Virus record (IMG/VR): IMGVR_UViG_3300010362_000037
Span: 1-43,766 of that record
Strand: one strand, 5' to 3'
From: a virus
Taxonomy: Duplodnaviria > Caudoviricetes
DNA: 43,766 bases
Part shown: one piece after another, positions 1 to 13,634 of the stretch
How positions within the stretch are numbered: the first letter of the stretch is position 1
How the letters are laid out: every line of letters begins with the position of its first letter
Made by a program: the position numbers and the translations under genes
Notes under the pieces: generated by a model
Databases searched by the model: none
The model's input: the letters and a program-made list of their open reading frames with translations, nothing else
Told to the model about the DNA's origin: nothing

Positions 1-318
1 GAGGGACGCTGCGACGACCTCCCACCGCCCGAGACGACCGCCCCGGTCGCGGCGCGCGACGACCGCCTTAGCGATAGTCGCCTTCGTCGGATTCTTCGCG
101 CGGAACGAGATCGGCGCGCGCCGCCCGTTTTCGAGGTAGTAGACGGCGGCGACGACCGGGACGAGTCGGCTCGCGGGGATCCCGCTCGCGGACGCTGCGG
201 CCTTCGTCGCGTCGGCGGGCGAGTAGGGGTAGTCCGCCGGGCGGGCGGTCTCCTCGGCGGCGTAGAACGCGCGAGCGGTCTCGCGGGCGAGGTCTAGGGG
301 GGTCTTCGTATTCGTCAT
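1..318 (-). CDS. Hypothetical protein, possibly HTH DNA-binding (runs off the window edge; not in the ORF track)
   Basis: ATG at 318-316 preceded by TAAGGAG; open to position 1: MTNTKTPLDLARETARAFYAAEE...ATKAAASASGIPASRL...GRLGRWEVVAASL. Confidence 0.75.
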   Translation of the reverse strand, partial: MTNTKTPLDLARETARAFYAAEETARPADYPYSPADATKAAASASGIPASRLVPVVAAVYYLENGRRAPISFRAKNPTKATIAKAVVARRDRGGRLGRWEVVAASL

Positions 319-423
319 CGTCCGTTCTCCTTAGATAGGGGGTAGCGCCGAGCGGCGCCTACGTAGAGTCGCCGAGATCGGGCGAGACCGCCTCCCCCGT
401 TCGGGGGATATTCGTTTACCCCT

Positions 424-930
424 TTTGAGTTAGTCCGTATCGGTTGAGTTGATAGGCCGGTCGGCCTACCCCTTTCGGGGGATGAGTTGAGAGTCGGGTT
501 GATATGCGTTGAGAGTGATACGAACGCACGTTCGGGCCAACTCAACTCAACACAACTCAACTCATAAGCCTGCGAAGTTCGGCATTCATATCAACACATG
601 CGAAGCTGAAAATCTAAGGCATGCATTTCAACACACGTCTCGGGGTCTTACCGGCGACTGTGTTGATATGTGGCGTCTCGAGTTCTGGGCGTGGAATACA
701 CATGTCAACACACTCAACTCAACACAGGTTTTCACGCTTACTACAACTCAACACAGCGTAAGCTGAAAAAACAGAGCAATTCATGTATTTTTGAGTTTGG
801 CCCTAGTGGTTTACTCACACGCAACTCATCACAGTTTTGCCGTCCTATGCCTCTCAAGCCTACTCACGTCAACCAAACCAAGCTCGTGAAACCCAACGTT
901 TTATGGCCTTCCAATACATTCAACTCAAAA
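424..930. repeat. Cluster of TCAAC(A/T)CA / TGAGTTG short repeats in AT-richer non-coding DNA
   Basis: CAACTCA at 538, 543, 553, 558, 715, 744, 822, 921; inverted TGAGTTG at 445, 483; several TCAACAC copies between 547 and 754. Confidence 0.8.
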
Positions 931-1050
931 TTGAACAGGATCCCCATATCAAGCGACCGACTCCGTATGAACAGAGTAAGAGTCCATAGCATTCCAATAC
1001 AGACCAAGTACGCACAGGTTAAGATTCCGTAAAGATTTCCGTATGTACCC

Positions 1051-1080
1051 TAGCGGAACACCGTATGAATCGGGTAGACT
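1051..1080 (+). promoter_or_regulatory. Candidate early promoter (TAGCGG-18-TAGACT)
   Basis: TANNNT -10 at 1075-1080 directly upstream of the structured leader; the -35 is weak. Confidence 0.4.
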
Positions 1081-1081
1081 C

Positions 1082-1731
1082 GACCGACTCGTCGAAGACG
1101 AGTCGGGTTGGCCTCGAACTTGAGGCGAGTACCTTGAAAACTCAATCTCGGAACCGGCCGGAGACGGAGACGCCTCCGGTCGGCATTTAGTCCGAGTCCG
1201 GCCTCTCAAGTAGGCGAAGCTAGATCGGCCAAAAGAGAGGGTCAAGCGCGCGGCGGGGAGACTACGACCTCCGCCCGACGGCCGGATACGGACGAGCGAG
1301 ACTCGAAAGAATAATGGGTAGGGCGGCTACTTGCCAACCCGAGGGACGGCGGCTTTTGGGCGATCCCTTGGTAGTAGGGGTAGAACCGATATGGAAAAGA
1401 GGCCCGGATGGTATCGAGACCCTCGCTCGTCGCGTCCGACCGGAGCCGACCGGCGTTAGCCCATCTAGTAGGGCGCGACCGGCGACGCGGGGAAACGGTA
1501 GGACGAGCTTACGAGCGAGTAATGAGACCGAGGTTGCGATCTTTGAAAACTCTATAATGGTACCCCCTCCTTACGGCGGGGCGTCGGGCGTCCGAAGGAC
1601 GGACGCCCGGCGTTCCATCAAGGAGAGGCGCGCTCCGAGTGGATGGTTCCCGTCCGTTCTCATCCGCTCGGCAAGACGCGACTCTCCTTGATGGAGCGCG
1701 GCGCAAAACGCCCGCCCGCAAATAAGGAGGG
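1082..1731 (+). ncRNA. Long structured leader / candidate ncRNA with two boxA-like motifs
   Basis: No credible ORF; many inverted repeats; CAATCTCGG 1143-1151 pairs with CCGAGGTTG 1528-1536; CCCTCCTTA 1565-1573 pairs with the SD TAAGGAGGG 1723-1731; TTGAAAACTC at 1134 and 1543. Confidence 0.6.
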
Positions 1732-1737
1732 AATGGA

Positions 1738-2103
1738 ATGGATAAGAAGACGCAAGAAGCGCGCGCAAGAAATAAGGCGATGTACCGCGCTCGCTTGACG
1801 AACCTATCTGGCTTGCCCGACTATGATGCGCGCGGCCTCGGTCGCAAGGGGAAGCCAAGCGAGACGTTCGCAACTCGTCAATGTAACTACGTCGTTGGCG
1901 GGAAAGAGAAGTTGATTCGCCGCAACCGGAAAACAAGAAAGATCGGCCAAAGCGACTACTACTTCATCCCGCTCATTCTCGGCGGGAAGCGTTGTACGAA
2001 GTCTGAGATGAGCAAGGGAAGATGCCTTGAACATCTCGGGGCGACGTATGAGAAGGTAAGCAAGAAACCGAGCGATGAGCTGAAAGACCTCGGAATCAAG
2101 TAG
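1738..2103 (+). CDS. Hypothetical basic early protein
   Basis: SD TAAGGAGG; stop codon coincides with the first intergenic RNA element. Confidence 0.8.
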   Translation: MDKKTQEARARNKAMYRARLTNLSGLPDYDARGLGRKGKPSETFATRQCNYVVGGKEKLIRRNRKTRKIGQSDYYFIPLILGGKRCTKSEMSKGRCLEHLGATYEKVSKKPSDELKDLGIK

Positions 2104-2200
2104 GAGGTCGGGCCAAATCGAAAAATGGCCCGGTCTCGTATTTGCCCCGAGGGCAAGTGCGAACCAACCGTAATGAGGGTACCTAACATAAGGAGAAGAT

Positions 2201-2461
2201 ATGTCGATCTACATCGAAACCGATGTGAGGCTCGATTCGCTTGACTTGGCGAATCTCGAGATGCTTGTAATGGACAGGATGAAGGAACTCCGCGAGTTCC
2301 GCAAGTCCAACGAGTCAAGCTTCTCGACGGCCATCGCCGATGAGCAGCTCGCCAACTACCGGGGCACGTTGAAGCGCATTCGGGCGGGGCGCGAGCAGGT
2401 CAAGATCATCTCGGACGGAATGCGCCGGCAAAACCGCCGCAATGCGGTGAAGCGGTCATGA
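2201..2461 (+). CDS. Hypothetical protein
   Basis: SD AAGGAG; overlaps next ATG (ATGA). Confidence 0.8.
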   Translation: MSIYIETDVRLDSLDLANLEMLVMDRMKELREFRKSNESSFSTAIADEQLANYRGTLKRIRAGREQVKIISDGMRRQNRRNAVKRS

Positions 2462-2628
2462 AGAACCTCGACGTCATCCTCGCGCGGCTTGAAGCGATCC
2501 GCGATGACCGCTTCGCAGAAATGTGCAAGTGCAAAGAGGTCGGCGATGAGGTGAAGGAGGCGACGTTGAACGGTGAAGTTCGCGGAATGATTACCGCGAT
2601 CAACGTCATCAAGAACGCGACAAGGTGA
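2458..2628 (+). CDS. Hypothetical 56-aa protein (MKNLDVILARLEAIRDD...)
   Basis: ATGA coupling; TGA is the start of the repeat element at 2626. Confidence 0.75.
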   Translation: MKNLDVILARLEAIRDDRFAEMCKCKEVGDEVKEATLNGEVRGMITAINVIKNATR

Positions 2629-2699
2629 GTAGGAAGTCATCCGGGTTGAAAGCCGGATGGCCTCGTACTCATACGAGTACGGATCAAAGGAGGGTACCG

Positions 2700-2801
2700 A
2701 TGAAAAGCCAAAATGCGATCAAGGATGCAATCCAGCATCCGAAGCAGGTCAATCTCGGCTCCTTCGGCGTTGCATTGATGGCGGCGGCGAAGAAGAGTTG
2801 A
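2700..2801 (+). CDS. Hypothetical 33-aa peptide (MKSQNAIKDAIQHPKQVNLGSFGVALMAAAKKS)
   Basis: Follows GGAGGGTACC; its TGA starts the next repeat element. Confidence 0.7.
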   Translation: MKSQNAIKDAIQHPKQVNLGSFGVALMAAAKKS

Positions 2802-2912
2802 GTAGGAAGCTCCATCTAGCGGGCATGCAATGCATGCGACGGGATGGAGCCTCGTGCTCAAAGCTGAGTACGGCAACAAACAAACCGTAATGAGGGTACC
2901 GAAGGAGATGAG

Positions 2913-3392
2913 ATGGCAACCAAGAAAGAAGCAAAAGTCAACTCCTTACCTGAGAAGGTGAAGGAATGGGCGAAGGACAACTACCTCGGCAACGAAGTCG
3001 GATCCGATGAGTACCGCGAAGTTCAACCTGTAGGTGGGTTGAACGCGGCGCTCGCGTACTTTATGAACACCAACGTGAATATGACGGCTGGCTTGCAGCC
3101 TCATCACGTTGAGATGCTCAAGGAGCTGCGCGATTGGATCTCGGCGATCATCATCGATGTCGAGGCCGAAGGCGATGGCTACCTGGAGCGGACAAAGAAA
3201 ACCGGCTATGCCCTCGCGTCGAATATGTACCCCGGCAACGATAAGGCCGAGCCTGTGTTGGCCCGGGCGTTCGATGCGAACTGGGATGTCGGCGTTCATC
3301 CGTACGGCTTTACGGCCGCGCAAGTGATGGAAGACTACAACTTCCATCTCGAGATCGACAAGATGGCGGAGGAGCGCGACAAGAAGAAGTGA
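2913..3392 (+). CDS. Hypothetical protein
   Basis: SD AAGGAG; bounded by repeat elements. Confidence 0.8.
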   Translation: MATKKEAKVNSLPEKVKEWAKDNYLGNEVGSDEYREVQPVGGLNAALAYFMNTNVNMTAGLQPHHVEMLKELRDWISAIIIDVEAEGDGYLERTKKTGYALASNMYPGNDKAEPVLARAFDANWDVGVHPYGFTAAQVMEDYNFHLEIDKMAEERDKKK

Positions 3393-3459
3393 GTAGGAAG
3401 TCATCCTTGGGGGAGGATGGCCTCGTACTCATGATGAGTGCGAGAAGGAGGGTACCAAA

Positions 3460-3903
3460 ATGTCCGAGTTCGAATGGACTGACCCGGATGACGGGAAGGT
3501 CTATGAGATGCGTTACATCGTAACGCAACATGAGAGCGAAGGCCCGGAATATGTCGAGTGGCGTGAGAAGCCGATGGCTGAGCGTGACTTGACGATGTGG
3601 CATAAGCTCCCGCCGTTCGCCATGCCACCCCAAGAAGCTATGGAGCACTGGCATGGCCCCGTGATCCGGTGGTGGGATGAAGTCCAACAGGGCGTCATCC
3701 TCGCCATCAAGGATGACGGACGCGAGGAGTACAACGCTCTCTGCGTCAACGAAAAATGCGAGTTGTTCTGGGCCGATCTGACGGTCTTCGAGAACATCTC
3801 CGACCCCGATGGCGATCAGGTCTCGCCTGGCATGGTAATCAAGACGAATCATGCCTTGGAAGTGAAAGGCCCGGACTTGCTCCGGGAATGGTACGCGAGA
3901 TGA
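3460..3903 (+). CDS. Hypothetical acidic protein
   Basis: Follows GGAGGGTACC. Confidence 0.8.
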   Translation: MSEFEWTDPDDGKVYEMRYIVTQHESEGPEYVEWREKPMAERDLTMWHKLPPFAMPPQEAMEHWHGPVIRWWDEVQQGVILAIKDDGREEYNALCVNEKCELFWADLTVFENISDPDGDQVSPGMVIKTNHALEVKGPDLLREWYAR

Positions 3904-4322
3904 ACGCGCCATTGTACGGACGCGAGTTGACGTATGCGGACGAGACGGACGTGTTTGCCTTGGTCGAAGAGTTCTATTGCATTGCCAAGGAAGCATTGCC
4001 GATCCCGTCAAGCGACGATGGACTCGGGTTCCGCGATCTCTGGATGTCCGGCCCCAATCCGGACGGAGAAGGCATCTGGTACAACGATACGACGGCGGTT
4101 GAGCCGCTTGTTCTGCAAGCGATCTGCGCCGAGATGCTCTCTCGTGGGATTGATCCCGGCTACGGCGACTATGCCGACGATGATTCGAGCGTCGGGATGG
4201 TGATGGCGTTCGTCAAAACCGGCAAGAAGTATGACGTCGAGTTCGTCGGAATCACGAGAATCGAGTCAATCGGCTTCAACGCGGCCCGACGTGTCGGGAT
4301 GGCGTTGTCGCTGCTGAGCTGA
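3900..4322 (+). CDS. Hypothetical acidic protein
   Basis: ATGA overlap at 3900 (start trimmed from track ORF 3756). Confidence 0.75.
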   Translation: MNAPLYGRELTYADETDVFALVEEFYCIAKEALPIPSSDDGLGFRDLWMSGPNPDGEGIWYNDTTAVEPLVLQAICAEMLSRGIDPGYGDYADDDSSVGMVMAFVKTGKKYDVEFVGITRIESIGFNAARRVGMALSLLS

Positions 4323-4410
4323 TAGAAGCTGTTATGCTGAGAAGCGTAATGCTGCGAGGCATAACGGCTTGTGTCAACCTGGCACAGAAAGGCCAACAAG
4401 GAGGGTACCG

Positions 4411-4671
4411 ATGAAGAAGAAGGATGTGCGGATTGGCGCATACTACGCCATCAAGCACACGTCATCTCCGTATGGGAAGCTCAGCGTCATTCGCATTGAC
4501 GGTGAGTCGCAGTACGGAGGCTACAACGCCACCAACCTCAAGACGAAGCGACCGATCCGCATCAAGGCGGCAACGAAGCTCCGCTATGAGGTCAAGCTCA
4601 ACCCCGACTTTGTCGAGGCCGAGCCTGAGCTGATGCTGAAGAACGGCATCAAGAAATGGCAGGTGGCGTAA
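4411..4671 (+). CDS. Hypothetical basic protein (MKKKDVRIGAYY...)
   Basis: ATG directly after GGAGGGTACC. Confidence 0.8.
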   Translation: MKKKDVRIGAYYAIKHTSSPYGKLSVIRIDGESQYGGYNATNLKTKRPIRIKAATKLRYEVKLNPDFVEAEPELMLKNGIKKWQVA

Positions 4672-5036
4672 TGCCTGACTACGAATCAGAAGCATGGCAG
4701 GCATACCTGCACGTTCGGCAGGAAGTCGAGCATGACGTCGAGCGCGGTATGATGCGCATCGGCAAGGACAATGTCATGCGGAAGATGGACTACTTCGATG
4801 AGATCGAGCGGCGGTTGAACAATCTGATCGCGAACTACAACCGCTACCGGCTCAAGGATGAGAAGAACATCGCGAAGTACAAGGACGATCCGCAGTACAA
4901 GGAGATCATCCCGCAATGGGAGACGGATCGCGCCTGGGCTTCGGAGATGGTCTGGATGATCCGCAACTATCGCGATCAGGAGCGGTTCCGCAAGGACTTC
5001 GGACTCGCTGTTGTCTTGGTGAAGAGCAATGCCTAA
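4671..5036 (+). CDS. Hypothetical protein
   Basis: TAATG coupling. Confidence 0.75.
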   Translation: MPDYESEAWQAYLHVRQEVEHDVERGMMRIGKDNVMRKMDYFDEIERRLNNLIANYNRYRLKDEKNIAKYKDDPQYKEIIPQWETDRAWASEMVWMIRNYRDQERFRKDFGLAVVLVKSNA

Positions 5037-5253
5037 GTACAAGATACATGGCTTCCTCTATGAGCCGAGCGCGGAAGGCGTGGACAGAAATGGCTACCTG
5101 CACTTCTGGGATGTTGTCGAAGCGCCGACCGTGAAAGAAGCCTACGAAATGACGTGGGAAGACTACGGCGAGTACAATACGCTCGAATGTGCTGGCGAGG
5201 TCAAAAGCAAGCACGATGAGCAACTCTGGCTGAAGCTAAACGCAACAGGCTGA
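5029..5253 (+). CDS. Hypothetical protein
   Basis: Overlaps previous stop; ends at a repeat element. Confidence 0.75.
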   Translation: MPKYKIHGFLYEPSAEGVDRNGYLHFWDVVEAPTVKEAYEMTWEDYGEYNTLECAGEVKSKHDEQLWLKLNATG

Positions 5254-5327
5254 GCAGAAAGTCCCATCCGTAAAAAGATGGGGCCTTGTGTTCGGGCTGT
5301 ACCGAACCAACCGAAGGAGGGTACCAA

Positions 5328-5726
5328 TTGACTGGATGGAATATGCCTCCAGGTGTCAATGTCAACGACATCCCCGGGAATCGTCCCGAGGATGAGATGG
5401 AGGAAGCGTTCTGGGCCGAGCTTGAGAAGAAGCTGACTCTGATCAAAGTCGCTCAGGACAACGAGTCTGTGATCCCGGTCATCGAGGCTATCGGCGATAA
5501 CTGGGATGAGGATTGGTTCGTCCAGGCGATCTCCAAAGCTCGAGACATGGGCTTCGACGCGGGCTACAACCAGGGCGTCGCCGACGAAGCTATGCAGATC
5601 GGCGGCTATGAGTCGGAAGTCTGGGAACGTGCGCAAACATGGCTGGAAGACAACAAGACGGCCAGCGCGCGAGCCTACATCTCGCAGCTCGCGAAGATCA
5701 GAGCTGAGATGAACGCCGATGATTGA
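5328..5726 (+). CDS. Hypothetical protein (GWNMPPGV..DIPGN N-terminus)
   Basis: TTG start after GGAGGGTACC. Confidence 0.75.
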   Translation: MTGWNMPPGVNVNDIPGNRPEDEMEEAFWAELEKKLTLIKVAQDNESVIPVIEAIGDNWDEDWFVQAISKARDMGFDAGYNQGVADEAMQIGGYESEVWERAQTWLEDNKTASARAYISQLAKIRAEMNADD

Positions 5727-5904
5727 CGCGAACGGCAAGGACATCGAGTACGGCGACAAAGTCAGGCAGCATCCCGACGGCGAGATCGTCGCGCAGGTCT
5801 ACTACATGGACTATCTGAAGATGATAGTTCACGTAATGGTGATCGACGAGATCGACAAAGGTACGCTCGTCAAGCTGCGGCCAGACGAGATCGAAGTCAT
5901 CTGA
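5719..5904 (+). CDS. Small hypothetical protein, possibly SH3/KOW-like
   Basis: DANGKDIEYGDKV motif; ends at a repeat element. Confidence 0.7.
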   Translation: MIDANGKDIEYGDKVRQHPDGEIVAQVYYMDYLKMIVHVMVIDEIDKGTLVKLRPDEIEVI

Positions 5905-5977
5905 GTAGGAAGTCGCCCATGTGCGATGGGCGGCCTCGTATTCAGATGGTCTGAATACGTACATAAGGAGGGTACCT

Positions 5978-6289
5978 ATGCCAATGTTTGATGATGCGAG
6001 TACCTACTCGCCATACAAACCGGCGTTCGGCCCGGAGAAAGACATCATCATGATGGCGACTCCGGGTGACTGGCCCTGTTGGCCCAGGCTGCCGCTGAAG
6101 CGGCGGAACCTGAGCACTGGGATGATGGAGACCGGCTACCTGCTGGAGCTGAACAACTTCATGCACGTCGTCTTCATCGGCACCATCTACGACGTTCTGC
6201 CTGACAGCGTCGATAAGCTCGGCGAGGTCAAGCAGATCAAGTACAACTCGTTCCAAGCGATCCAAGCCGACGGCTGGATCGTAGACTGA
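5978..6289 (+). CDS. Hypothetical phage protein (WPCWPRLPLKR...GWIVD)
   Basis: ATG after GGAGGGTACC. Confidence 0.75.
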   Translation: MPMFDDASTYSPYKPAFGPEKDIIMMATPGDWPCWPRLPLKRRNLSTGMMETGYLLELNNFMHVVFIGTIYDVLPDSVDKLGEVKQIKYNSFQAIQADGWIVD

Positions 6290-6516
6290 TGGAGCGGCCG
6301 GTCTCGTATGAGAGAATCCCATTCCGGTTTCTCTCTTGCCCGGATTGCCGGCATCAGCTCTGCTGGATCAATCCGAGGCTGCCCAACTACTGCCCCGAAT
6401 GCGGCAATCGCGTCGAATGGAAGGAGCGCGTCATGATGGCTGATGACGAAGCGATCCTGATGACGCATAATGTCTCACTCGCGGGCGGCGAGTACGTGGA
6501 TGGCTTCGATGGCTAG
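6289..6516 (+). CDS. Zinc-ribbon protein
   Basis: CPDC...CPECG. Confidence 0.7.
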   Translation: MERPVSYERIPFRFLSCPDCRHQLCWINPRLPNYCPECGNRVEWKERVMMADDEAILMTHNVSLAGGEYVDGFDG

Positions 6517-6703
6517 AGATATTGACGACCCGGATCCGAAGACCTGGGATGACGATGTTCTCGAAGCCTTTGTCGCCGGCATGATGCTCGACTACGGCGC
6601 GATGGTCATGGAAGTCGAAGAGTTGAAAGTTCGGCGGCTCACGATCATGCTGGAGTTCGAGCGTCGTTTCAAGATCGGAGTTGGGTTTCAAGGCCCATCG
6701 TGA
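6509..6703 (+). CDS. Hypothetical protein
   Basis: Overlaps previous stop; ends at the repeat element at 6701. Confidence 0.65.
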   Translation: MARDIDDPDPKTWDDDVLEAFVAGMMLDYGAMVMEVEELKVRRLTIMLEFERRFKIGVGFQGPS

Positions 6704-6782
6704 AGCGTAGCTCGCCCGTGTGCGACGGGCGGGCTAGACTTCATAATGGAATGAAGTCTACTTGCCCAAGGAGGGTGCCAAA

Positions 6783-7439
6783 ATGCATGCGAAGATGAGA
6801 CCGGGCGCGAATCTCAGCGCTCACGGAACAGTCATCGCCTGTCGCGTCTTCGACAAGACAGAAGAGGAAGACGTCAATCACGGCACGCAGATCACATACC
6901 GTTCAATCGTGTTCTGCGTCCGCGAAGTCTACACTCCAACCTACGTCACGGATCCGTATGTGACGTGGGAGCGGTGGACATCTGTCCTGAAGTCCGATCC
7001 GACCGTCATTATCGCCGACTCGTTCAGCTGGGGCCACTATCACCTCAGCCTGGATATGGCCGTCGCTGATTACGATCATCGGGTCGAAGACAAGACGCAC
7101 GAGAAAGCAGACATAGATGCGATCTCGGCGCGTGGCGTCAACGACGGAAGGGCAGCGGCTACCTGGCTAATCGACGGCAACACCGATGCTCCGCTCGCAG
7201 TTCTCGAAGGTCTGCTGCGTGGCATCGATGAGGGCGATCCTGAGGTGCTCGACTCTCTGCCAATGCCTCATCTCGGTGGCGAATGGTCGGACAATCCGAC
7301 CTGGGAAGACATCTGCAAGGAAGAACTCGACCGCTATGAAGACGGCGAGGATGACTTGCTCAATGTCTACCATCACTCGTTCCACGAGGGCGTCGAGCAG
7401 CAGATCCGCGAGATGCACCGAGATCTGATGGCCGTCTGA
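6783..7439 (+). CDS. Hypothetical acidic protein
   Basis: ATG after GGAGGGTGCC. Confidence 0.8.
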   Translation: MHAKMRPGANLSAHGTVIACRVFDKTEEEDVNHGTQITYRSIVFCVREVYTPTYVTDPYVTWERWTSVLKSDPTVIIADSFSWGHYHLSLDMAVADYDHRVEDKTHEKADIDAISARGVNDGRAAATWLIDGNTDAPLAVLEGLLRGIDEGDPEVLDSLPMPHLGGEWSDNPTWEDICKEELDRYEDGEDDLLNVYHHSFHEGVEQQIREMHRDLMAV

Positions 7440-7512
7440 GTAGGAAGTCCGGTTGGAAGCAACCGGGCCTCGTGTTCAGATGAGCTGAACACTATCCGAA
7501 GGAGGGTACCGA

Positions 7513-7755
7513 ATGATGAACCCGTCACCGGGCGAAATCAACGATCCGCTGGAACCGGGCAACATCCAGCTGAGCTACCGCATCAAGGTGTACTTTGCGC
7601 CGGGAATGGATACGGTGCTGTATGCTCAAGGCGCGGAAGTCTTCATGGATGAGCACCATATCCAGTGGATCAAGTTCTTCGCCACGAACGGCCCCGATGC
7701 GGGTAAGGAACATATCGTCCGCACCGAGGAAGTGGTCATCGTCAGGGACAACTGA
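7513..7755 (+). CDS. Hypothetical protein
   Basis: ATG after GGAGGGTACC. Confidence 0.75.
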   Translation: MMNPSPGEINDPLEPGNIQLSYRIKVYFAPGMDTVLYAQGAEVFMDEHHIQWIKFFATNGPDAGKEHIVRTEEVVIVRDN

Positions 7756-8015
7756 TGTGGACAAAACGGTGGCAAAATAAGCGACCGGGTTGGACACGTC
7801 GGATTACCTGGTACCCCGTTCCTCATACCGACGGCGAACGTATCCATCTCAGGTTTGACGAGAGGATGGCGAACAACGAAGGTCGGGAGCGGTGGGACAT
7901 CATCGTCTCAAAAGCTCGAGCTGAAGAACTAGCAGCCGAGTATGAGAGTGACGAGTACCGCGAAGCCAAGGACATCTTCATCGATGTTATGGCAGAACAG
8001 GAGCAAGATGAGTGA
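7755..8015 (+). CDS. Hypothetical protein
   Basis: TGATG coupling. Confidence 0.7.
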   Translation: MWTKRWQNKRPGWTRRITWYPVPHTDGERIHLRFDERMANNEGRERWDIIVSKARAEELAAEYESDEYREAKDIFIDVMAEQEQDE

Positions 8016-8283
8016 AGGTGGGTTCATAATCGACTCGCCCAAGGGCATCAAGGCATTCGGTCTACTTCAGATCTACTACAAGCTGAAGCTGGAGATCGAG
8101 CGTCCCAACGGCCCGCGTTGGCGGCAGTCGCCATCTATTCAAGCGGTTCACGTAATGCGCCAAGCAGGCGTCAATCTCGACGATCTCGCGAAGCAGCCGC
8201 GCAAAGCCAAGGTGTTCGCCAGGTATCGCCAATACTTGCTGGACACCGGTGTCCTGAAGGAGAACGATGGCGACAGTCAATAG
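8008..8283 (+). CDS. Hypothetical protein
   Basis: AGGAG before ATG 8008. Confidence 0.7.
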   Translation: MSEGGFIIDSPKGIKAFGLLQIYYKLKLEIERPNGPRWRQSPSIQAVHVMRQAGVNLDDLAKQPRKAKVFARYRQYLLDTGVLKENDGDSQ

Positions 8284-8494
8284 TCGAGAGATCGTACAAG
8301 CGATCATCGACGGCGACGGTTGGTATCCTGGCGATAAGGAAGATGGCGTCCCTCAGGTCGTCAAGATCGTCCAGTATAACAACCAGTTCAATGGCGGGAT
8401 CGCGTACGGCCTGATCTACCGGGGCGAAGACCGGATGCGGTATCATACCGCTCCGGCCGTTCATAACCCCCAGACGATCTGGGAACGGAACTGA
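8267..8494 (+). CDS. Hypothetical protein
   Basis: SD AAGGAG; ends at a repeat element. Confidence 0.75.
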   Translation: MATVNSREIVQAIIDGDGWYPGDKEDGVPQVVKIVQYNNQFNGGIAYGLIYRGEDRMRYHTAPAVHNPQTIWERN

Positions 8495-8572
8495 GTAGAA
8501 AGTCACCCGCGTGCGACGGGTGGCCTTGTACTCAGAGTGGTTCTGAGTACATTACCCCGTAGGAGGGTACCA

Positions 8573-9532
8573 ATGAACGCTAACCAAAAGGATGACCTGC
8601 TGCGGAAGATTGCGGGTCTGCTGGCCAAGGCAGAGTCCACAGAGTTCGAAGGCGAGCGCGATGTGTTTCTCGCAAAAGCCGACGAGCTGATGATGAAGTA
8701 CAGCATCGAACTCTGGGAACTCGAACAGGCCAACCAGGGCCGCATCGATCAGAGGCAGCCGGTCATTCGTGACTTCGACTACAACTGGGCGTTCGAGTCT
8801 GGGCCGTTCCCGGAGATCGCAGATGCGCTCTGGACGCTGTTCAACTCGGTCGCTCGGCATGCGAACTGCGTCATCGTCTTTCACAAGCAGCACTACTCGC
8901 ACGAGAAGGGCGGCTACGCATCGGGCATGGTGCCGGTGATCGGTACGGAAAGCGATCTCGGCTACATGACGCTGCTGTTCAGCTCTCTGATGACTCAGCT
9001 CGTCGCCGCTGTTCATCCGAAGGTGGATACGAACAAGGGCTACGAGGAGAACCTGAGGACATTCCGTGAAGCTGGCTGGGGCTGGCTCGAGGTTGCGAAG
9101 GTGATGCAGGAGGCCGGTTACGACCTCGGCATGACGGTGAGCGATGCTCGGCATAAGGAAGCCCACGCCTACCGGCGTTGGTGCAAGCGCATGGGCATCG
9201 ACCAGAACTACGCTCACTTCAAGACCTACCGCCGGAACTTCGGCTATGGGTTTGTGAGTGCTCTGGATACTCGCTTCCGCGAGATGCGCAGCGAACAGGC
9301 TCAGAAGCTCGGAACGGGAATGGAACTCGCTCTCCGCGATCAGCGCGAGATCAACCGCGAGTTCATGTTCGCTCAGTTCCCAGACATGGGCGGTCGGCGC
9401 GGGGCGGTGGTGAAGGACAACCGCAAGTTCGACTCGGCTGCGTACAGCGGCGGGTCGGCGGCCGGGAAGTCCGCCAACATCAGCGTCCATCCGGCGAAGG
9501 GCGTCAAGGGACGCAAGTCGCTCGGAAAATGA
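8573..9532 (+). CDS. DUF2786 domain protein
   Basis: N-terminal KIAGLLAKAESTEFEGERDVFLAKADELMMKY is the DUF2786 signature. Confidence 0.85.
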   Translation: MNANQKDDLLRKIAGLLAKAESTEFEGERDVFLAKADELMMKYSIELWELEQANQGRIDQRQPVIRDFDYNWAFESGPFPEIADALWTLFNSVARHANCVIVFHKQHYSHEKGGYASGMVPVIGTESDLGYMTLLFSSLMTQLVAAVHPKVDTNKGYEENLRTFREAGWGWLEVAKVMQEAGYDLGMTVSDARHKEAHAYRRWCKRMGIDQNYAHFKTYRRNFGYGFVSALDTRFREMRSEQAQKLGTGMELALRDQREINREFMFAQFPDMGGRRGAVVKDNRKFDSAAYSGGSAAGKSANISVHPAKGVKGRKSLGK

Positions 9533-9603
9533 GCAGGAAGTCACCCGTGGGGGCGGGTGGCCTCGTGTTCATCCGAGCACGGAACCGAGAGGAGGGTACC
9601 GCT

Positions 9604-9792
9604 TTGGACAAGGAGTTCAAGGTCACGTTCACGATCACGATCAACGGTGTCACCGAGGTCGAGGCCGAAGACGAAGACGACGCCATGGACATTGTCGATG
9701 GCTGGGATCTGAGCGACTTCGGAGACTTCACCATCGGCGACAGCGAGGTCGATGTGACCGTCGAGGTCGAAGAAGTCAAGAAGGAGAAATGA
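9604..9792 (+). CDS. Small, very acidic protein (VEAEDEDDA motif)
   Basis: TTG start after GGAGGGTACC. Confidence 0.7.
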   Translation: MDKEFKVTFTITINGVTEVEAEDEDDAMDIVDGWDLSDFGDFTIGDSEVDVTVEVEEVKKEK

Positions 9793-10115
9793 CCGATCTG
9801 CCGTTCGAAGACGACATTCGCAACCCGTTCATGCCGGGTGACGATCTACCAAAGCCGAAGATAGGCGACGTGCTTGTTCTTCGCGATATGGAGATCAACG
9901 AGACCTACCCTCGACAGATGAGGGTTGTCGATACTCACGACAATCTTGGCGAGAGCTGGGATCCCGTCGGTGAGGAAGCCTGGATGCAACATGACATGAA
10001 CGACATCGCCGGATTCAAAGGTCACTGGTACGCGATCTGCGAACAAGTCGAGCAACTTGAAGTTTCCGATTCGTATGTCGTTGCCTCATACGAGGTCGCG
10101 ACCATCGAGAGGTAG
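9789..10115 (+). CDS. Hypothetical acidic protein
   Basis: SD AAGGAG; ATGA overlap. Confidence 0.75.
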   Translation: MTDLPFEDDIRNPFMPGDDLPKPKIGDVLVLRDMEINETYPRQMRVVDTHDNLGESWDPVGEEAWMQHDMNDIAGFKGHWYAICEQVEQLEVSDSYVVASYEVATIER

Positions 10116-10180
10116 TTGCGGTTCGCCCGAGTGCGACGGGCGTTCCGGAGCATACCGCTCCAGAAAGAGAGGGTACCAAA

Positions 10181-10762
10181 ATGGTCAAAAGGACAGAGGT
10201 TCCGGATCAGTTCCGGAGCACTGGCCCGACCGCGACCGAACCACAGCTTGGTTGGGCACGTAGGTTGCGGGACGGCAAAGATCTGAGCAGCTTGTCCGAG
10301 GAGCAACAGGATTGGCTAGCCACCGCTGACTTCGACACCTATCCTTCGGAGCTACCGAAGAGCAGGTTGAGTACAGTCATCGAGAAGCTAGTCAGCTTGC
10401 CTTGGGAGAAGCGCAAGGCGGTCGATTCCGGTCTGGACGACGGGCGCTATGGAGTTGAGAACGTACCTGGTCACAAGAACAAGGTCTCGTTCTTCCAACT
10501 CCGTACGCCCAAGGAAGGCGACTGGAAAGGCTACCAGTTCACCGATCAGATCGTGGGTCATGGGAAGCGGTATGGCGTCGTTGACGTCAAGACCCGTATG
10601 AAGATCCACTCTCTGATCAAGGAACAAGGGGCCAACGAGTGCCTCATGCGGTTCGGCGTCGAGTTCAAGCACTGCGGCCGCTGCGGTCGCGAGTTGACCG
10701 ATGACACCAGCCGCGCCTGGGGCATCGGCCCTGACTGCAGAAAGATCCTGGGGCTGTCATGA
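10181..10762 (+). CDS. DUF6011-like zinc-finger protein
   Basis: C-terminal CGRCGRELTDDTSRAWGIGPDC. Confidence 0.8.
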   Translation: MVKRTEVPDQFRSTGPTATEPQLGWARRLRDGKDLSSLSEEQQDWLATADFDTYPSELPKSRLSTVIEKLVSLPWEKRKAVDSGLDDGRYGVENVPGHKNKVSFFQLRTPKEGDWKGYQFTDQIVGHGKRYGVVDVKTRMKIHSLIKEQGANECLMRFGVEFKHCGRCGRELTDDTSRAWGIGPDCRKILGLS

Positions 10763-10941
10763 ACTTCCGCGACTACCTCGGAATGCTCATGAATCTCGAG
10801 ATTGAAGCTGAGGACTCGGGCATTGATCTGAATAAGATTCAGATTGCTGCCTACCTCCTCGAAGACGGGATCATAATGCAGCCCGAGAAACCGTACATCG
10901 ACGGCTTCCATCTCTGCCTCGACTACAAGAGAGGTGAATGA
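10759..10941 (+). CDS. Hypothetical protein
   Basis: ATGA overlaps at both ends. Confidence 0.65.
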   Translation: MNFRDYLGMLMNLEIEAEDSGIDLNKIQIAAYLLEDGIIMQPEKPYIDGFHLCLDYKRGE

Positions 10942-11234
10942 TGCCTCTAGACGAAACCTGGGAGCCCATCGACACCCACGTCCTCATCACCGAGGCGGGG
11001 CCGATCCCGCTGAACATCCGTCGAGTCCAGTCGAGCAATATCAGCTGGGTTGGATGGCCTCAGGCGGCGGAAGCTGCGCCAATGATGGTCGTCCAGTTCG
11101 TTGACGGCAGCCGCTACATCTACTTCGGAGTCAGCCGGCAGCGTGCGAATGCTGTGGCTCGGGCGAAGAGCAGCGGCGAGTACCTCAATCGTAAGATCAA
11201 GAACCAGGGATACCGGGTTCTCAAGGTGCGGTGA
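10938..11234 (+). CDS. KTSC domain protein
   Basis: VQSSNISWVGW...VQFVDGSRYIYFGV...AKSSGEYLNRKIK. Confidence 0.85.
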   Translation: MMPLDETWEPIDTHVLITEAGPIPLNIRRVQSSNISWVGWPQAAEAAPMMVVQFVDGSRYIYFGVSRQRANAVARAKSSGEYLNRKIKNQGYRVLKVR

Positions 11235-11302
11235 CCCGCCGTTCCCACCTACTGGGTGGGGGCGGGAGGTCACACTCCACGTTTCTCCTGGAAAACCAGG
11301 GG

Positions 11303-11350
11303 TAGACGGGTACCATCCCGTACGCTATACTCGGCGTATTGGGTACCATC
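11303..11350 (+). promoter_or_regulatory. Sigma70-type promoter TAGACG-17-TATACT with two GGGTACCATC sites
   Basis: -35 at 11303-11308, -10 at 11326-11331; GGGTACCATC at 11308-11317 and 11341-11350. Confidence 0.75.
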
Positions 11351-11371
11351 AACCGTAGGAGGGAGCATAGA

Positions 11372-11950
11372 ATGCCCCGTAGTCGCAAGACGACGACGGC
11401 TGCATCCACGTCCAGTGGTCGCGGTCGTCCGACAGAGAACAACGTGCCGACGAGCGACATCGTCAAGGCGATCAAGCGCGGCACCACGAGCCACAGTGCT
11501 GTGGCGAACGAGTTGGGCGTGCCGGTTGGCGCCTTCTCGTCCATGCAATTCAGCAGGGCACTGGTCGAGGCCGGTGAAGAGGAAGTCATCCCGGAGCGGC
11601 AGCGCACGGAGAACACCGTGCTCAGGCTCTACGAGGATGAAGGCTACCGCTGGGAGCTGATCGCGGCCAAGTTCGAGACCTCCGTTGCGGACGTCAAGGA
11701 GCTGGTCGGCGGCGTGGACGTTGCCGCAGGTCTGACTCGCGGCAAGAAGGAGAACGGGAACGGCAACGGCAGTTCCTCTCGTTCCTCCAAGAAGCAGACG
11801 ACGGCGCAGAGCGGAAGCAAGACTCGCTCCGTGAAGCGCACGTCGGCCCGCAGCAGCAAGAAGGCGTCGGCGGCATCGTCGGCGGCTGCCCCCACCCGGT
11901 CTCGCACGCGCAAGCAGCGGCAGGCCCGGGCAGGCGGCAACCCTTCCTAG
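11372..11950 (+). CDS. Putative DNA-binding protein: tandem HTH-like core with basic Ser/Arg/Lys-rich tails
   Basis: SHSAVANELGVPVG and YRWELIAAKFETSVADVKEL helices; histone-like C-tail; SD AGGAGGG. Confidence 0.65.
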   Translation: MPRSRKTTTAASTSSGRGRPTENNVPTSDIVKAIKRGTTSHSAVANELGVPVGAFSSMQFSRALVEAGEEEVIPERQRTENTVLRLYEDEGYRWELIAAKFETSVADVKELVGGVDVAAGLTRGKKENGNGNGSSSRSSKKQTTAQSGSKTRSVKRTSARSSKKASAASSAAAPTRSRTRKQRQARAGGNPS

Positions 11951-12000
11951 CGGCGGTCATCGTTGCCCAGAAGAGCGGCGATTGGGATGAGCTTGAGCAG

Positions 12001-12240
12001 TTGCTCTATCCCGGTCGCCGCGTCTGGGTAGTCAGCAAGGTGGATTCAGTCCCGTTCATAGCGGGGCCGTACACCATGGTGAAGTTCAAGCAGTTCTTGC
12101 CGCGAGGAGCCTATGAGCGGTTTGGCGAACTCGCAGAACGCAAGAAATCACTCATCCAGATTTACACCGATCCTGGAGGTCTTCGGACAGTGGCCGCCGC
12201 TGAGATAAGGCTGCAAGATCCAGGTAGGACTGGACGATGA
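12001..12240 (+). CDS. Hypothetical protein; start uncertain, possibly a frameshift extension of 11372-11950
   Basis: Weak SD, TTG start; frame reads as plausible protein back to 11941; stop coincides with the variant element at 12237. Confidence 0.55.
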   Translation: MLYPGRRVWVVSKVDSVPFIAGPYTMVKFKQFLPRGAYERFGELAERKKSLIQIYTDPGGLRTVAAAEIRLQDPGRTGR

Positions 12241-12300
12241 GCTGCGGTTGGCCCGTCGGGGGCGGGCCTTCCGAAGTTCATATCCAAAAGGAGGGTGCCA

Positions 12301-12894
12301 ATGAATATCCTGAAGGAATGGGAGCGTGATCCGCCTTCGGAGCCTATGGACAGTATGCCAGCTCTCTGGTATGACTTCCAGCGGCGACGTGCGGATCCGA
12401 AAAGCCCAGTCCATAGATTCAGGGACAACATTCCGGATGCCTGTGCTCTCGACGGTTCGGGTCAAGTAGCTCTACGCCGCGCTGTTCGAAGCAGAAGGCC
12501 AAACAACGGAAAGATGCACAACCACCAGTCGAAGGTATCGCCTGCGTTGCCAGCGTTGGAAGAGAAGCTCATGAAGTACCTTCCCGCGCTGATGCGATGC
12601 GAGACCTTCGGCGCTCTGTACCACCTGATCGAACTCCTGCGAACTCCAGGGATCGGGCCGATGACGACGTATGATGTCGCTGTACGGTTCGGTGCCTGGC
12701 TTGAGTTGAAGCCCGACTCGATCTACTTGCACGCAGGGACAACAGCCGGCCTCAAGGCGCTCGGTTTCGAACTGCGTGGATGGAATACGTCAATCGCAAT
12801 GGAAGCCTTGCCTCGCATACTGCGGCGCAAGGATCCGGATGAAGTGGAGGATTTCCTGTGCACGTACAGGCGAGCCTTCGAGTTGCTCCCATGA
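12301..12894 (+). CDS. HhH-fold protein resembling aGPT-Pplase / amino acid:DNA transferase family
   Basis: PGIGPMTTYD...YLHAGTTAGL...EVEDFLCTY pattern. Confidence 0.55.
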   Translation: MNILKEWERDPPSEPMDSMPALWYDFQRRRADPKSPVHRFRDNIPDACALDGSGQVALRRAVRSRRPNNGKMHNHQSKVSPALPALEEKLMKYLPALMRCETFGALYHLIELLRTPGIGPMTTYDVAVRFGAWLELKPDSIYLHAGTTAGLKALGFELRGWNTSIAMEALPRILRRKDPDEVEDFLCTYRRAFELLP

Positions 12895-13151
12895 GTGACT
12901 TCGAGAGTAAGTTGCCAGTGTACCAGGCGAAGAGGAGCGAGAGCTTTCCCAAGTTCCTTGTCGTCTATTGTGGCCACAAAGATTGCCAGGGCACAGCGGC
13001 CGGTCGGCCGTTCCTGGTATCAGAAAAGGAATGGCTACGTCCGCGCCGCGTCTTCAACGAGCGGTCGGGCAAGACTACGACCATAGTTGGGAGAGCCTGT
13101 CCGTATTGTTTCCGGGCTGGCAGGATCCCAGCTAGGCGGGAGATCGGCTAG
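12891..13151 (+). CDS. Zinc-binding hypothetical protein
   Basis: CGHKDC...CPYC; ATGA overlap. Confidence 0.65.
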   Translation: MSDFESKLPVYQAKRSESFPKFLVVYCGHKDCQGTAAGRPFLVSEKEWLRPRRVFNERSGKTTTIVGRACPYCFRAGRIPARREIG

Positions 13152-13217
13152 ACTCCCGCGAGGCCGTGTCGGGCCATCCTACAAGCTCGCGGCGCGACAC
13201 AGAACCGCTGCCGCGAC

Positions 13218-13306
13218 GGGGAACCGGGGTAGAATGGTACCCTCCCCCGGTTCCCCAAATCTCTTGAGCGTGATGGTCGCACCTGGGTTCGACTCCCAGG
13301 ACGCTA
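13218..13306 (+). ncRNA. Intergenic hairpin followed by a tRNA-like acceptor/T-arm mini-structure
   Basis: 12-bp perfect IR 13218-13229/13245-13256; AGCGT...CCTGGG-TTCGACT-CCCAGG-ACGCT at 13267-13305. Confidence 0.5.
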
Positions 13307-13334
13307 CTCGCCGTAACCAAAAAGGAGGGTACTA

Positions 13335-13634
13335 ATGAGTCAACCGGAGGTAGAGTTTGTAGATGCTCTACCAGCGAAGGGCAACGCCATCAGCTGGTCA
13401 AGTCGTCTCATTCCTCTACTGAACAACCCGAATCGCTGGGCGCTTGTTTGGACAGCAGAAAGTCCGGATCAAGCGGGCAGCATTCAGTCCAACCTGCATG
13501 GACGCAAGCTCGTCATTCCCGAGCCATCCCACTGGTGGGAGTTCGCGGCTCGTGGGTGCGAGGTCTATGGAGTCTACCGAGGCATGAAGAGAGGTAAGCG
13601 TGCAAGCGTTCGCGGAACTCACAGAGTCAGGTGA
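13335..13634 (+). CDS. Hypothetical protein, probable small DNA-binding protein
   Basis: SD GGAGGGTAC; NPNRWALV...FAAR...VYGVY pattern seen in actinophage proteins. Confidence 0.7.
   Translation: MSQPEVEFVDALPAKGNAISWSSRLIPLLNNPNRWALVWTAESPDQAGSIQSNLHGRKLVIPEPSHWWEFAARGCEVYGVYRGMKRGKRASVRGTHRVR

What the first reader, a model, noticed from the sequence alone, without database searches (positions are those of the whole stretch)
2097..12299. 11-13 copies of a covarying intergenic RNA element segment the early operon: RNase III-like stem plus a mutually exclusive hairpin
Seen: each copy starts at the upstream stop codon and reads a-GRAA-GYY-[variable hairpin]-RGC-CTYG-a'-loop-a''. Strand a' can pair either with a (long stem) or with a'' (short hairpin). 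Pairing is kept while sequence changes: TGAGTA/TACTCA (2626), CAAGTA/TATTTG (2097), TGATA/TGTCA (4320), TGAAG/CTTCA (6701); GGAA/CTCG versus GAAA/CTTG (5251, 8491); GTC/GGC versus GCT/AGC (2799). Many G-U pairs imply RNA rather than DNA. A G.G mismatch is conserved, usually 2 bp from an A.C mismatch. Known: T7 and SP82/SPO1 early transcripts are cut by RNase III at intergenic stems, and the upper stem GAAGUCAUCC..GGAUGGCCUC resembles the T7 R1.1 upper stem as I recall it. Inference: host RNase III cuts the polycistron into units; a' then refolds with a'' to cap each new 5' end with a protective hairpin. Because a contains the stop codon, terminating ribosomes could gate the switch. This modular cassette format may also promote gene shuffling.
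Basis: partly seen in the sequence, partly recalled or inferred. Interest (0 to 1): 0.9.

Follow-up and report, generated by a model that had tools for sequence, protein, structure and literature searches.

The report
Cut-and-recap RNA cassettes between phage genes
Fourteen copies of a conserved two-way RNA fold sit between the early genes of this uncultured phage and between those of many other phages; they carry a G·G mismatch like the one in actinobacterial ribosomal-RNA precursor stems, so the host enzyme RNase III likely cuts them at one predictable bond, after which the freed strand would refold to shield the start of the next message.

Summary
The element is real: 14 copies in the window, all on the coding strand of the early region, and 236 scored copies in all (167 in the window and 20 related loci, 58 in 14 distant loci, 11 in a phage contig without detectable protein homology). 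Both helices covary. The long stem spans about 20 bp around a G·G mismatch (226 of 236). The second hairpin (a'/a'') starts at a fixed place, one base 5' of that G, wherever the stop codon lies. Published RNase III pair preferences, helix geometry and wobble polarity point to the bond just before it. The same G·G marks pre-16S processing stems in 11 of 13 sampled Actinomycetota. Best reading (0.68): host RNase III cuts there and a'' displaces a, capping the new 5' end. No RNA data exist; the E. coli-derived score is modest, a second register competes, and the host is inferred. Ribosome gating, the T7 R1.1 register and the A·C mismatch as a family feature are not supported. No Rfam match. Earlier AI notes of this scan saw similar twin hairpins in other phages, one a relative. 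A new variant of T7-type mRNA punctuation.

The parts
2097..2162 (+). Copy 1: long stem with G·G at 2103/2138, a'/a'' hairpin to 2162; predicted 3'-strand cut after 2136
2626..2682 (+). Copy 2: G·G 2632/2665; predicted cut after 2663
2799..2873 (+). Copy 3: G·G 2805/2854, extended upper stem; predicted cut after 2852
3390..3444 (+). Copy 4: G·G 3396/3425; predicted cut after 3423
4319..4387 (+). Copy 5: G·G 4325/4371, no A·C; predicted cut after 4369
5251..5307 (+). Copy 6: G·G 5257/5288; second hairpin starts late (5290); predicted cut after 5286
5902..5959 (+). Copy 7: G·G 5908/5938; predicted cut after 5936
6701..6760 (+). Copy 8: G·G 6707/6737 next to a C·A; predicted cut after 6735
7437..7492 (+). 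Copy 9: G·G 7443/7472; second hairpin starts at 7472; predicted cut after 7470
8492..8551 (+). Copy 10: G·G 8498/8528; predicted cut after 8526
9530..9582 (+). Copy 11: G·G 9536/9565; predicted cut after 9563
10112..10161 (+). Copy 12: G·G 10118/10148, tandem U·U in upper stem; predicted cut after 10146
11232..11279 (+). Copy 13 (not tied to a tagged RBS): G·G 11238/11266, 4-bp second hairpin 11265-11279; predicted cut after 11264
12238..12280 (+). Copy 14: G·A 12244/12274, no second hairpin; predicted cut after 12272
2175..12299 (+). 13 A/C-rich spacers plus ribosome-binding sites ending GGGTRCC, one after each copy except copy 13; this tag is clade-specific and not part of the wider element family

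Best explanation
Each copy is a conserved ~20-bp RNA helix with a G·G mismatch whose 3' strand can pair instead with a downstream arm, and host RNase III likely cuts that 3' strand two bases 5' of the mismatched G, after which the arm would displace the upstream strand and close a hairpin on the first base of the next message. Numbering: 0 is the G·G, + runs toward the base of the stem, - toward the loop. Shown in sequence: both helices covary; the long helix is paired from about -12 to +7; the second hairpin begins at -1. Inferred: the long stem forms first during transcription and is usually the more stable form; the RNase III dimer sits with its axis at -2.5; the cut at -2/-1 leaves a 5' monophosphate that RNase J and RNase E would otherwise attack; the G·G gives a'' (which pairs that G with C) the energy to release the two products. 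I think a single nick is somewhat more likely than a double cut (about 60:40), because positions -3 to -6 next to the 5'-strand bond are almost always imperfect; a nick would also leave the upstream message ending in the upper hairpin, so that every unit of one to a few genes has a hairpin at both ends.
For: Covariation: the top 24 of 946 column pairs by corrected mutual information are all long-stem, second-hairpin or a-to-a'' pairs; an independent count on an 82-copy alignment gives 79.4% paired cells against 50.8% shuffled and 33-44% slid. Second hairpin at -4 kcal/mol or better in 150 of 167 (15% for shuffled, 26% for swapped downstream sequence), 47 of 58, 11 of 11. Its boundary: pairing at -1 is 0.94 against 0.48 expected from composition, at -2 0.49 against 0.59, at -3 0.15 against 0.15; the distant set gives 0.98, 0.30 (0.31 expected), 0.23 (0.23). 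With the E. coli in vivo pair table (PMC6212723 Table S4) the lower half-site of this register is the best of all half-sites tried and the only positive one once the G·G is left out, in the close set (best in 16 of 21 loci) and, for the five core rows, in the distant set; the same scoring picks the expected register for 4 of 5 T7 stems (R1.1 position agrees with PMC8708148). Position +1, the row that prefers A-U/U-A, has no G in 236 of 236 copies; wobble polarity matches the table at -12 (U·G 23, G·U 1), +7 (G·U 50, U·G 3), -7 (16:3) and +2 (65:0) (r=0.44, best of 10 registers). The paired fraction over 20 positions peaks at this register in both sets (0.80, 0.83). The best leader/trailer helix of the 16S precursor shows a G·G in 11 of 13 evaluable Actinomycetota genomes, with U-A at +1 and the same best half-site. 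An unrelated phage contig in an actinobacterial genome bin has the same signature in 11 copies, which fits a host factor; no RNase III gene in 5 of 5 near-complete relatives. After a cut, the first base is paired with P>0.5 in 126 of 150 and the second hairpin beats the leftover lower stem in 101 of 150 even at 1 M. All of -3 to -6 are Watson-Crick in 14 of 236 copies, all of -7 to -10 in 127 of 236.
Against: No RNA end has been mapped. The table is from E. coli; S. coelicolor RNase III is reported to choose sites differently (PMC10126417 passages). Summed over both half-sites, a second register (3' cut at +3/+4) scores as well or slightly better. Position -1 is G-C or C-G in 214 of 236 copies, and such a pair beside the scissile bond slows E. 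coli RNase III 7- to 14-fold in vitro (PMC1540722). The upper half-site of the favoured register scores badly (-4.4). For the window's own 13 copies the favoured half-site is not the best once the G·G is left out, and 6 of its 12 second hairpins start at -2, so the bond is uncertain by one base. G content at -12 and +7 does not stand out from neighbours, the wobble score of register +5 is close behind (0.38), and internal mirror symmetry does not peak at -2.5. Copies are related, so counts overstate independence; positions -3 to +5 were used to anchor the close set and an unseeded alignment did not converge. Where RNase III cuts relative to the G·G in actinobacterial rRNA stems was not found. 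The host is inferred from protein similarity only.
Confidence: 0.68

Rival explanations
1. RNase III acts on the element but in another way: it cuts at +3/+4 on the 3' strand, or binds without cutting, and a'/a'' is a competing fold that tunes how often this happens.
For: Two-sided score for the +3 register equals or beats the favoured one (0.64 against -0.04 at the larger pseudocount) and it puts A-U/U-A beside the scissile bond; G-C at that place is a catalytic antideterminant; 41 of 150 copies have the two folds within 2 kcal/mol.
Against: It puts G-C/C-G at the row where these pairs block binding, its advantage rests on the G·G row alone for single half-sites, it uses less of the paired helix (0.70-0.71 against 0.80-0.83), and it does not explain a second hairpin that begins at -1.
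Confidence: 0.12
2. No cut: ribosomes stopping at the upstream codon melt the lower stem, a'/a'' forms, and the switch couples upstream translation to downstream expression or RNA stability.
For: The stop starts 6 nt before the G in 87 of 160 copies; from my own knowledge of the ribosome's unwinding reach, a ribosome there would melt about to -1.
Against: The boundary stays at -1 in every stop-distance class and the hairpin is kept in 24 of 24 copies with distant stops; neither fold covers the Shine-Dalgarno sequence (mean unpaired probability 0.52 uncut, 0.59 cut), so no output is apparent. Translation may still modulate cutting.
Confidence: 0.07
3. Another protein reads the G·G helix: a phage-encoded nuclease or RNA-binding protein, or a host enzyme other than RNase III.
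For: The G·G is nearly invariant (226 of 236), as a protein-binding site might be; most early proteins have no family; one is a KTSC-domain protein.
Against: The same signature occurs in a phage contig with no tblastn match to the window's nine core proteins or to the pooled early proteins (only 32.7 of its 60.7 kb were fetched) and in host-phylum rRNA stems.
Confidence: 0.07
4. The repeats work mainly as DNA: folded single-strand or homology sites that shuffle gene cassettes, or as transcription terminators, like T4-type PeSL cassettes.
For: Gene order is highly mosaic and adjacency is lost about twice as often across elements; the phage has a Sak4-like annealing protein.
Against: The coding strand folds more stably in 147 of 167; no integrase family hit among 64 window proteins; promoter-like and terminator-like matches are at chance level, with one + strand terminator-like hit on a copy; most inner junctions are also shuffled.
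Confidence: 0.04
5. The element is a small self-cleaving ribozyme.
For: A fixed boundary at -2/-1 would also follow from self-cleavage.
Against: Only the two Gs are nearly invariant and there is no conserved loop or junction; no Rfam ribozyme match.
Confidence: 0.02

Closest known systems
RNase III processing signals of phage T7 early mRNA (R0.3, R0.5, R1, R1.1, R1.3)
   Same: Intergenic stems between early genes, some beginning at the upstream stop; single cuts there leave protective 3' hairpins (PMC1540722 and PMC5389636 passages).
   Different: Five sites against 14 here; T7 uses A/U-rich internal loops and an upper half-site; the model finds no T7 site; no conserved G·G or second hairpin showed in the minimum-energy folds of the five T7 regions (alternative folds not tested).
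RNase III processing stem of the 16S rRNA precursor in Actinomycetota (boxA-type leader paired with the spacer)
   Same: G·G mismatch with U-A on its base side, U·G or U-A next, G at +7 on the 5' strand; same best-scoring half-site.
   Different: Long-range A/U-rich duplex around an rRNA, not a local G/C-rich hairpin; no a'' arm was looked for; the cut position in these stems was not found in the papers read.
RNase III sites of Bacillus phages SP82/SPO1 early mRNA
   Same: Recalled only: repeated intergenic stems cut by a Gram-positive host's RNase III in a region of small early genes.
   Different: Not compared; two searches returned no usable paper.
PeSL cassettes of T4-type phages (PMC2839356)
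   Same: Repeated stop-to-start intergenic cassettes with stem-loop and Shine-Dalgarno sequence flanking orphan genes; recombination between copies (passages).
   Different: PeSLs hold a sigma-70 promoter and act as terminators; no such enrichment here; no second hairpin or G·G in the passages read.

Membership tests
Bacterial RNase III substrate | Helix of about two turns | tested here: met
   Paired from about -12 to +7 in distant and unrelated sets; inner length 27 nt or more in 157 of 167. Lower limit by energy walk is broad (median +11); covariation supports +7.
Bacterial RNase III substrate | A-U/U-A at proximal-box position 2 | tested here: met
   Lower half-site: no G at +1 in 236 of 236 (18 of 167 close copies are C·A). 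Upper half-site fails (A-U/U-A at -6 in 10 of 236), but one box set is sufficient (PMC1540722).
Bacterial RNase III substrate | A-U/U-A beside the scissile bond (proximal-box position 4) | tested here: not met
   G-C/C-G at -1 in 214 of 236; E. coli rule; such pairs occur in 22 of 85 E. coli in vivo sites at that row.
Bacterial RNase III substrate | U·G polarity at the distal box, 11 nt from each cut | tested here: inconclusive
   Right polarity at -12 and +7, but wobbles are a minority, both places are helix ends, and another register scores nearly as well.
Bacterial RNase III substrate | RNase III-dependent cleavage with 5'-monophosphate ends | not testable with these tools
   Needs bench work.
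T7-type early RNase III signals (R1.1 kind) | Same register and model match as T7 sites | tested here: not met
   R1.1-like register scores -10.0; best model hit in T7 1-8000 has E=1.0.
T7-type early RNase III signals (R1.1 kind) | Between genes of an early polycistronic region, sense strand | tested here: met
   14 of 14 window copies; whole-record hits in 5 of 5 near-complete relatives all on the strand and near the span of the tagged early genes. Transcription itself is not shown.
PeSL cassettes | Embedded sigma-70 promoter and terminator | tested here: not met
   7 promoter-like sites against 5.2 expected, none inside a copy; 11 terminator-like against 12.4 expected. Consensus scans may miss actinobacterial signals.
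Any Rfam family (ribozymes included) | Match at gathering score | tested here: not met
   0 hits in the window and in three other loci; six chance-level hits at E up to 5.

The most novel reading that the evidence does not exclude
A family of uncultured actinobacterial phages copies the host's rRNA-processing signature to have RNase III nick a standard cassette once, and a built-in strand displacement then separates the products and caps both new ends, turning one long early transcript into many doubly protected mRNAs. In this clade every unit also carries one ribosome-site tag, which a phage hairpin with the complementary loop (13218-13256) could silence as a class.
Probability: 0.3. Interest if true: 0.8.

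Novelty: new variant of a known kind. Interest (0 to 1): 0.6.

Why it matters
RNase III cuts usually expose a 5'-monophosphate end, and actinobacteria have RNase J, which prefers such ends (PMC10126417 passages). A cassette that cuts and recaps itself would explain how phages of these hosts use T7-style punctuation without losing downstream messages. The 236 natural variants give a ready substrate library and a base-level prediction for actinobacterial RNase III specificity, including what a G·G mismatch does in rRNA stems. It is also a compact 55-75 nt part for insulating genes in synthetic operons. If RNase III is not involved, a nearly invariant G·G helix shared by unrelated phages would point to an unknown host factor.

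Tried and rejected
Unseeded alignment of pair profiles locked onto larger enclosing folds; a profile seeded on the 13 window copies was used, and 48 of 215 regions were dropped before counting (35 low score, 13 leader-type). RNA runs: no RNA holder listed. Exact pattern in GTDB genomes: 2 hits that do not fold into the element. Model search of 151 Actinomycetota genomes scored only up to 37 candidates each and gave 1 hit, a phage contig, so chromosomal copies are not found in those searched, not excluded. No prophage-level helicase match in 301 genomes at E 1e-60. Nine nearest cultured phages: one weak single hit (E 0.049), not followed; blastn of one copy against 50,697 phage records: none. 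Mini-III-type register (cut at 0/+1; motif recalled) scores -9.1. No tRNA called in 10 loci. boxA-like words have no clear rRNA-type partner (12-14 of 17 best pairs over 12 kb, not tested against chance). A DOI recalled for a structural paper was wrong and returned an unrelated paper; nothing is taken from it. S. pyogenes supplement text did not give the rRNA cut sites in readable form. One row (copy 13) was out of register and was redone. In one search one of the ten profiled stems (L199) was anchored on a second G·G; 9 of 22 loci were skipped for short flanks or missing end motifs.


Full report
Setting. The window is a whole 43,766-base virus record of a contractile-tailed phage: tail sheath, baseplate, DnaE polymerase, ThyX, SNF2 helicase, Sak4-like annealing protein and a PF06737 transglycosylase. 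Its best cultured matches are actinobacteriophages at 30-43% identity, so an actinobacterial host is inferred, not shown. Small + strand ORFs, mostly without family, fill 1738-13634.

Observation. A covariance model built on 82 copies finds 14 copies at E<3e-4, all + strand, within 2095-12288, and one weaker hit inside the exonuclease ORF. I number the helix from the G·G mismatch (0), + toward the base, - toward the loop. In the window G·G is present in 13 of 14 copies, A·C at -3 in 8 of 14, and the upstream stop begins at +6 in 11 of 14.

Family. Helicase and pattern searches gave relatives. Of 215 non-redundant regions upstream of the shared ribosome-site tag, 167 in 21 loci (window included) fitted a seeded profile; 48 were dropped. 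The model then found 58 non-redundant copies in 14 loci that were not in training and have other ribosome-site words (helicase 37-49% identical where measured), and 11 copies in a 60.7-kb phage contig of genome G032, where the 32.7 kb fetched show no tblastn match to the window's core or early proteins. Over all 236: G·G in 226, Watson-Crick at -2 in 236, no G at +1 in 236, G-C/C-G at -1 in 214. The close set was anchored on -3 to +5, so those columns are partly selected there.

Both folds are under selection. The top 24 of 946 column pairs are predicted pairs or the indirect a-to-a'' link (a'' columns were aligned by best pairing, which inflates them). The long stem passes shuffle and slide controls. 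The second hairpin reaches -4 kcal/mol in 150 of 167 copies against 15% and 26% in two nulls. The coding strand folds better in 147 of 167. The long form is favoured in 122 of 150 (median 2.9 kcal/mol), and neither form hides the Shine-Dalgarno sequence.

A fixed boundary. The second hairpin covaries at -1 (rank 4) and not at -2 (rank 480); pairing at -2 and -3 equals what composition gives. The distant set repeats this, and 8 of 11 copies in the unrelated contig start at -1. The boundary does not move with the stop codon. A hairpin that is selected up to one base and no further is what a fixed 5' end would leave.

RNase III register. I scored every register with the pair counts of 85 E. coli sites (PMC6212723: passages, section 27 and Table S4 read), using box definitions from PMC1540722 (passages and figure legends); B. 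subtilis preferences are reported as similar (PMC11780869 passages). The method picks the expected register for 4 of 5 T7 stems. For the element, the best half-site places the 3'-strand cut at -2/-1, the same bond as the boundary (2.7 bits; 0.6 without the G·G, the only positive value; best in 16 of 21 loci), and again in the distant set (3.3 and 1.4). The helix is paired from -12 to +7, centred on the axis of this register, and wobble polarity fits it best. Against: the two-sided sum does not separate it from a cut at +3/+4; the upper half-site is poor; G-C at -1 slows the E. coli enzyme 7- to 14-fold; the window's own copies do not pick it once the G·G is left out; two further symmetry tests were negative.

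The G·G has a host counterpart. Choosing the best 22-bp leader/trailer helix without a sequence prior, 11 of 13 evaluable Actinomycetota 16S precursors show a G·G in the boxA-type stem, one has G-C and one printed window does not show the site; U-A follows at +1 and the same half-site scores best. RNase III is the reported or presumed enzyme for such stems (PMC4681348 and PMC5389636 passages), but I could not place its cut relative to the G·G; figures and supplements I could not read may hold this. No RNase III gene was found in 5 of 5 near-complete relatives; G032 has one, though binning does not prove it is that phage's host.

Mechanism. Shown: two covarying, exclusive helices, a fixed boundary, the shared signature. 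Inferred: RNase III cuts at -2/-1; a'' displaces a (favoured in 101 of 150 in a two-strand model) and pairs the first base (P>0.5 in 126 of 150). This would matter because S. coelicolor RNase J prefers monophosphate ends (PMC10126417 passages); that a flush 5' hairpin blocks RNase J and RNase E is from my own knowledge. Positions -3 to -6 are all Watson-Crick in only 14 of 236 copies, which suggests a nick; single cuts stabilise T7 RNA and double cuts destabilise lambda int RNA. After a nick the upper hairpin (median -17.7 kcal/mol) would end the upstream message, its last base paired with P>0.5 in 83 of 150. Units hold one to four genes in 148 of 173 cases by rough gene calls.

The R1.1 likeness is out of register. 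Ribosome gating is not required. Shuffling is about twofold enriched at elements but common everywhere; PeSL cassettes are the precedent (PMC2839356 passages). T7 grows without RNase III (PMC6938266 passage), so the benefit may be quantitative.

Novelty. No Rfam family. Ten full-text searches of the open library listed no paper describing this element, judged from listings and abstract starts; subscription journals, including the SP82/SPO1 papers I recall, were not searched. Earlier AI notes of this scan report twin-hairpin cassettes in other phages, one a relative of this one; they are unchecked and not evidence. One prompted the genome search that led to G032. It works like T7 punctuation, is not a T7-type site by register, and adds a recapping arm and an rRNA-like signature: a new variant of a known kind, interest 0.6.

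Noticed in passing
window 13218-13256: A 12-bp hairpin whose loop holds the complement of the ribosome-site tag; seen at the matching place in 16 other loci. It pairs in silico with the 14 tagged sites at -18 to -23.5 kcal/mol against a mean of -11 for 21 other sites. Tag variants are mostly wobble-compatible (33 A>G or C>T, no T>C; 10 others). Antisense RNA or DNA operator is open; the tag is absent or changed in distant phages.
   Followed up: partly
window 1553-1574: A -10-like TATAAT followed by a second complement of the tag, nearly invariant in ten relatives; it can pair with the first ribosome-binding site at about 1723-1731.
   Followed up: partly
window 13268-13312: tRNA-like module with a T-loop-type hairpin between the anti-tag hairpin and the next gene, present in most close relatives; not called by ARAGORN. 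Could be an RNase P or Z processing signal.
   Followed up: partly
window 1134-1143 and 1543-1552: Two boxA-like words in the early leader, identical to the variant in 7 of 13 Actinomycetota rRNA leaders; similar words in most relatives. Possible rRNA-type antitermination.
   Followed up: partly
window 11300-11950: Promoter-like site 11303-11331 flanked by two copies of the tag core, 33 bases apart, before a 192-aa ORF with weak helix-turn-helix likeness (best 0.85, lead only). Looks like an autoregulated DNA-binding gene.
   Followed up: partly
window 1610-1700: Long near-perfect stem before the first ORF; in four relatives a small hairpin can form from its 3' strand, as in the element.
   Followed up: partly
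window 15951-16027: Element-like stem with G·A mismatch inside the 5' part of the exonuclease ORF (E 7e-4); a long stem lies at a similar place in L081.
   Followed up: partly
window copies, positions +12 to 0: Stop codons in two or three frames in 54 of 167 copies against about 10 in shuffles; would let a cassette terminate any incoming ORF.
   Followed up: no
window 500-960: A/T-rich stretch with many short AACTCAAC-type repeats, perhaps a replication origin or packaging region.
   Followed up: no
L171 9100-16800 (G032:C16): Unrelated 60.7-kb phage contig in an actinobacterial genome with 11 copies, a 2x2 loop at -5/-6 and its own repeated ribosome-site word.
   Followed up: yes
L186 (Streptomyces phage Gibson, MK305891.1, 29413-29480, - strand): Single weak model hit (E 0.049) in a cultured phage.
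   Followed up: no
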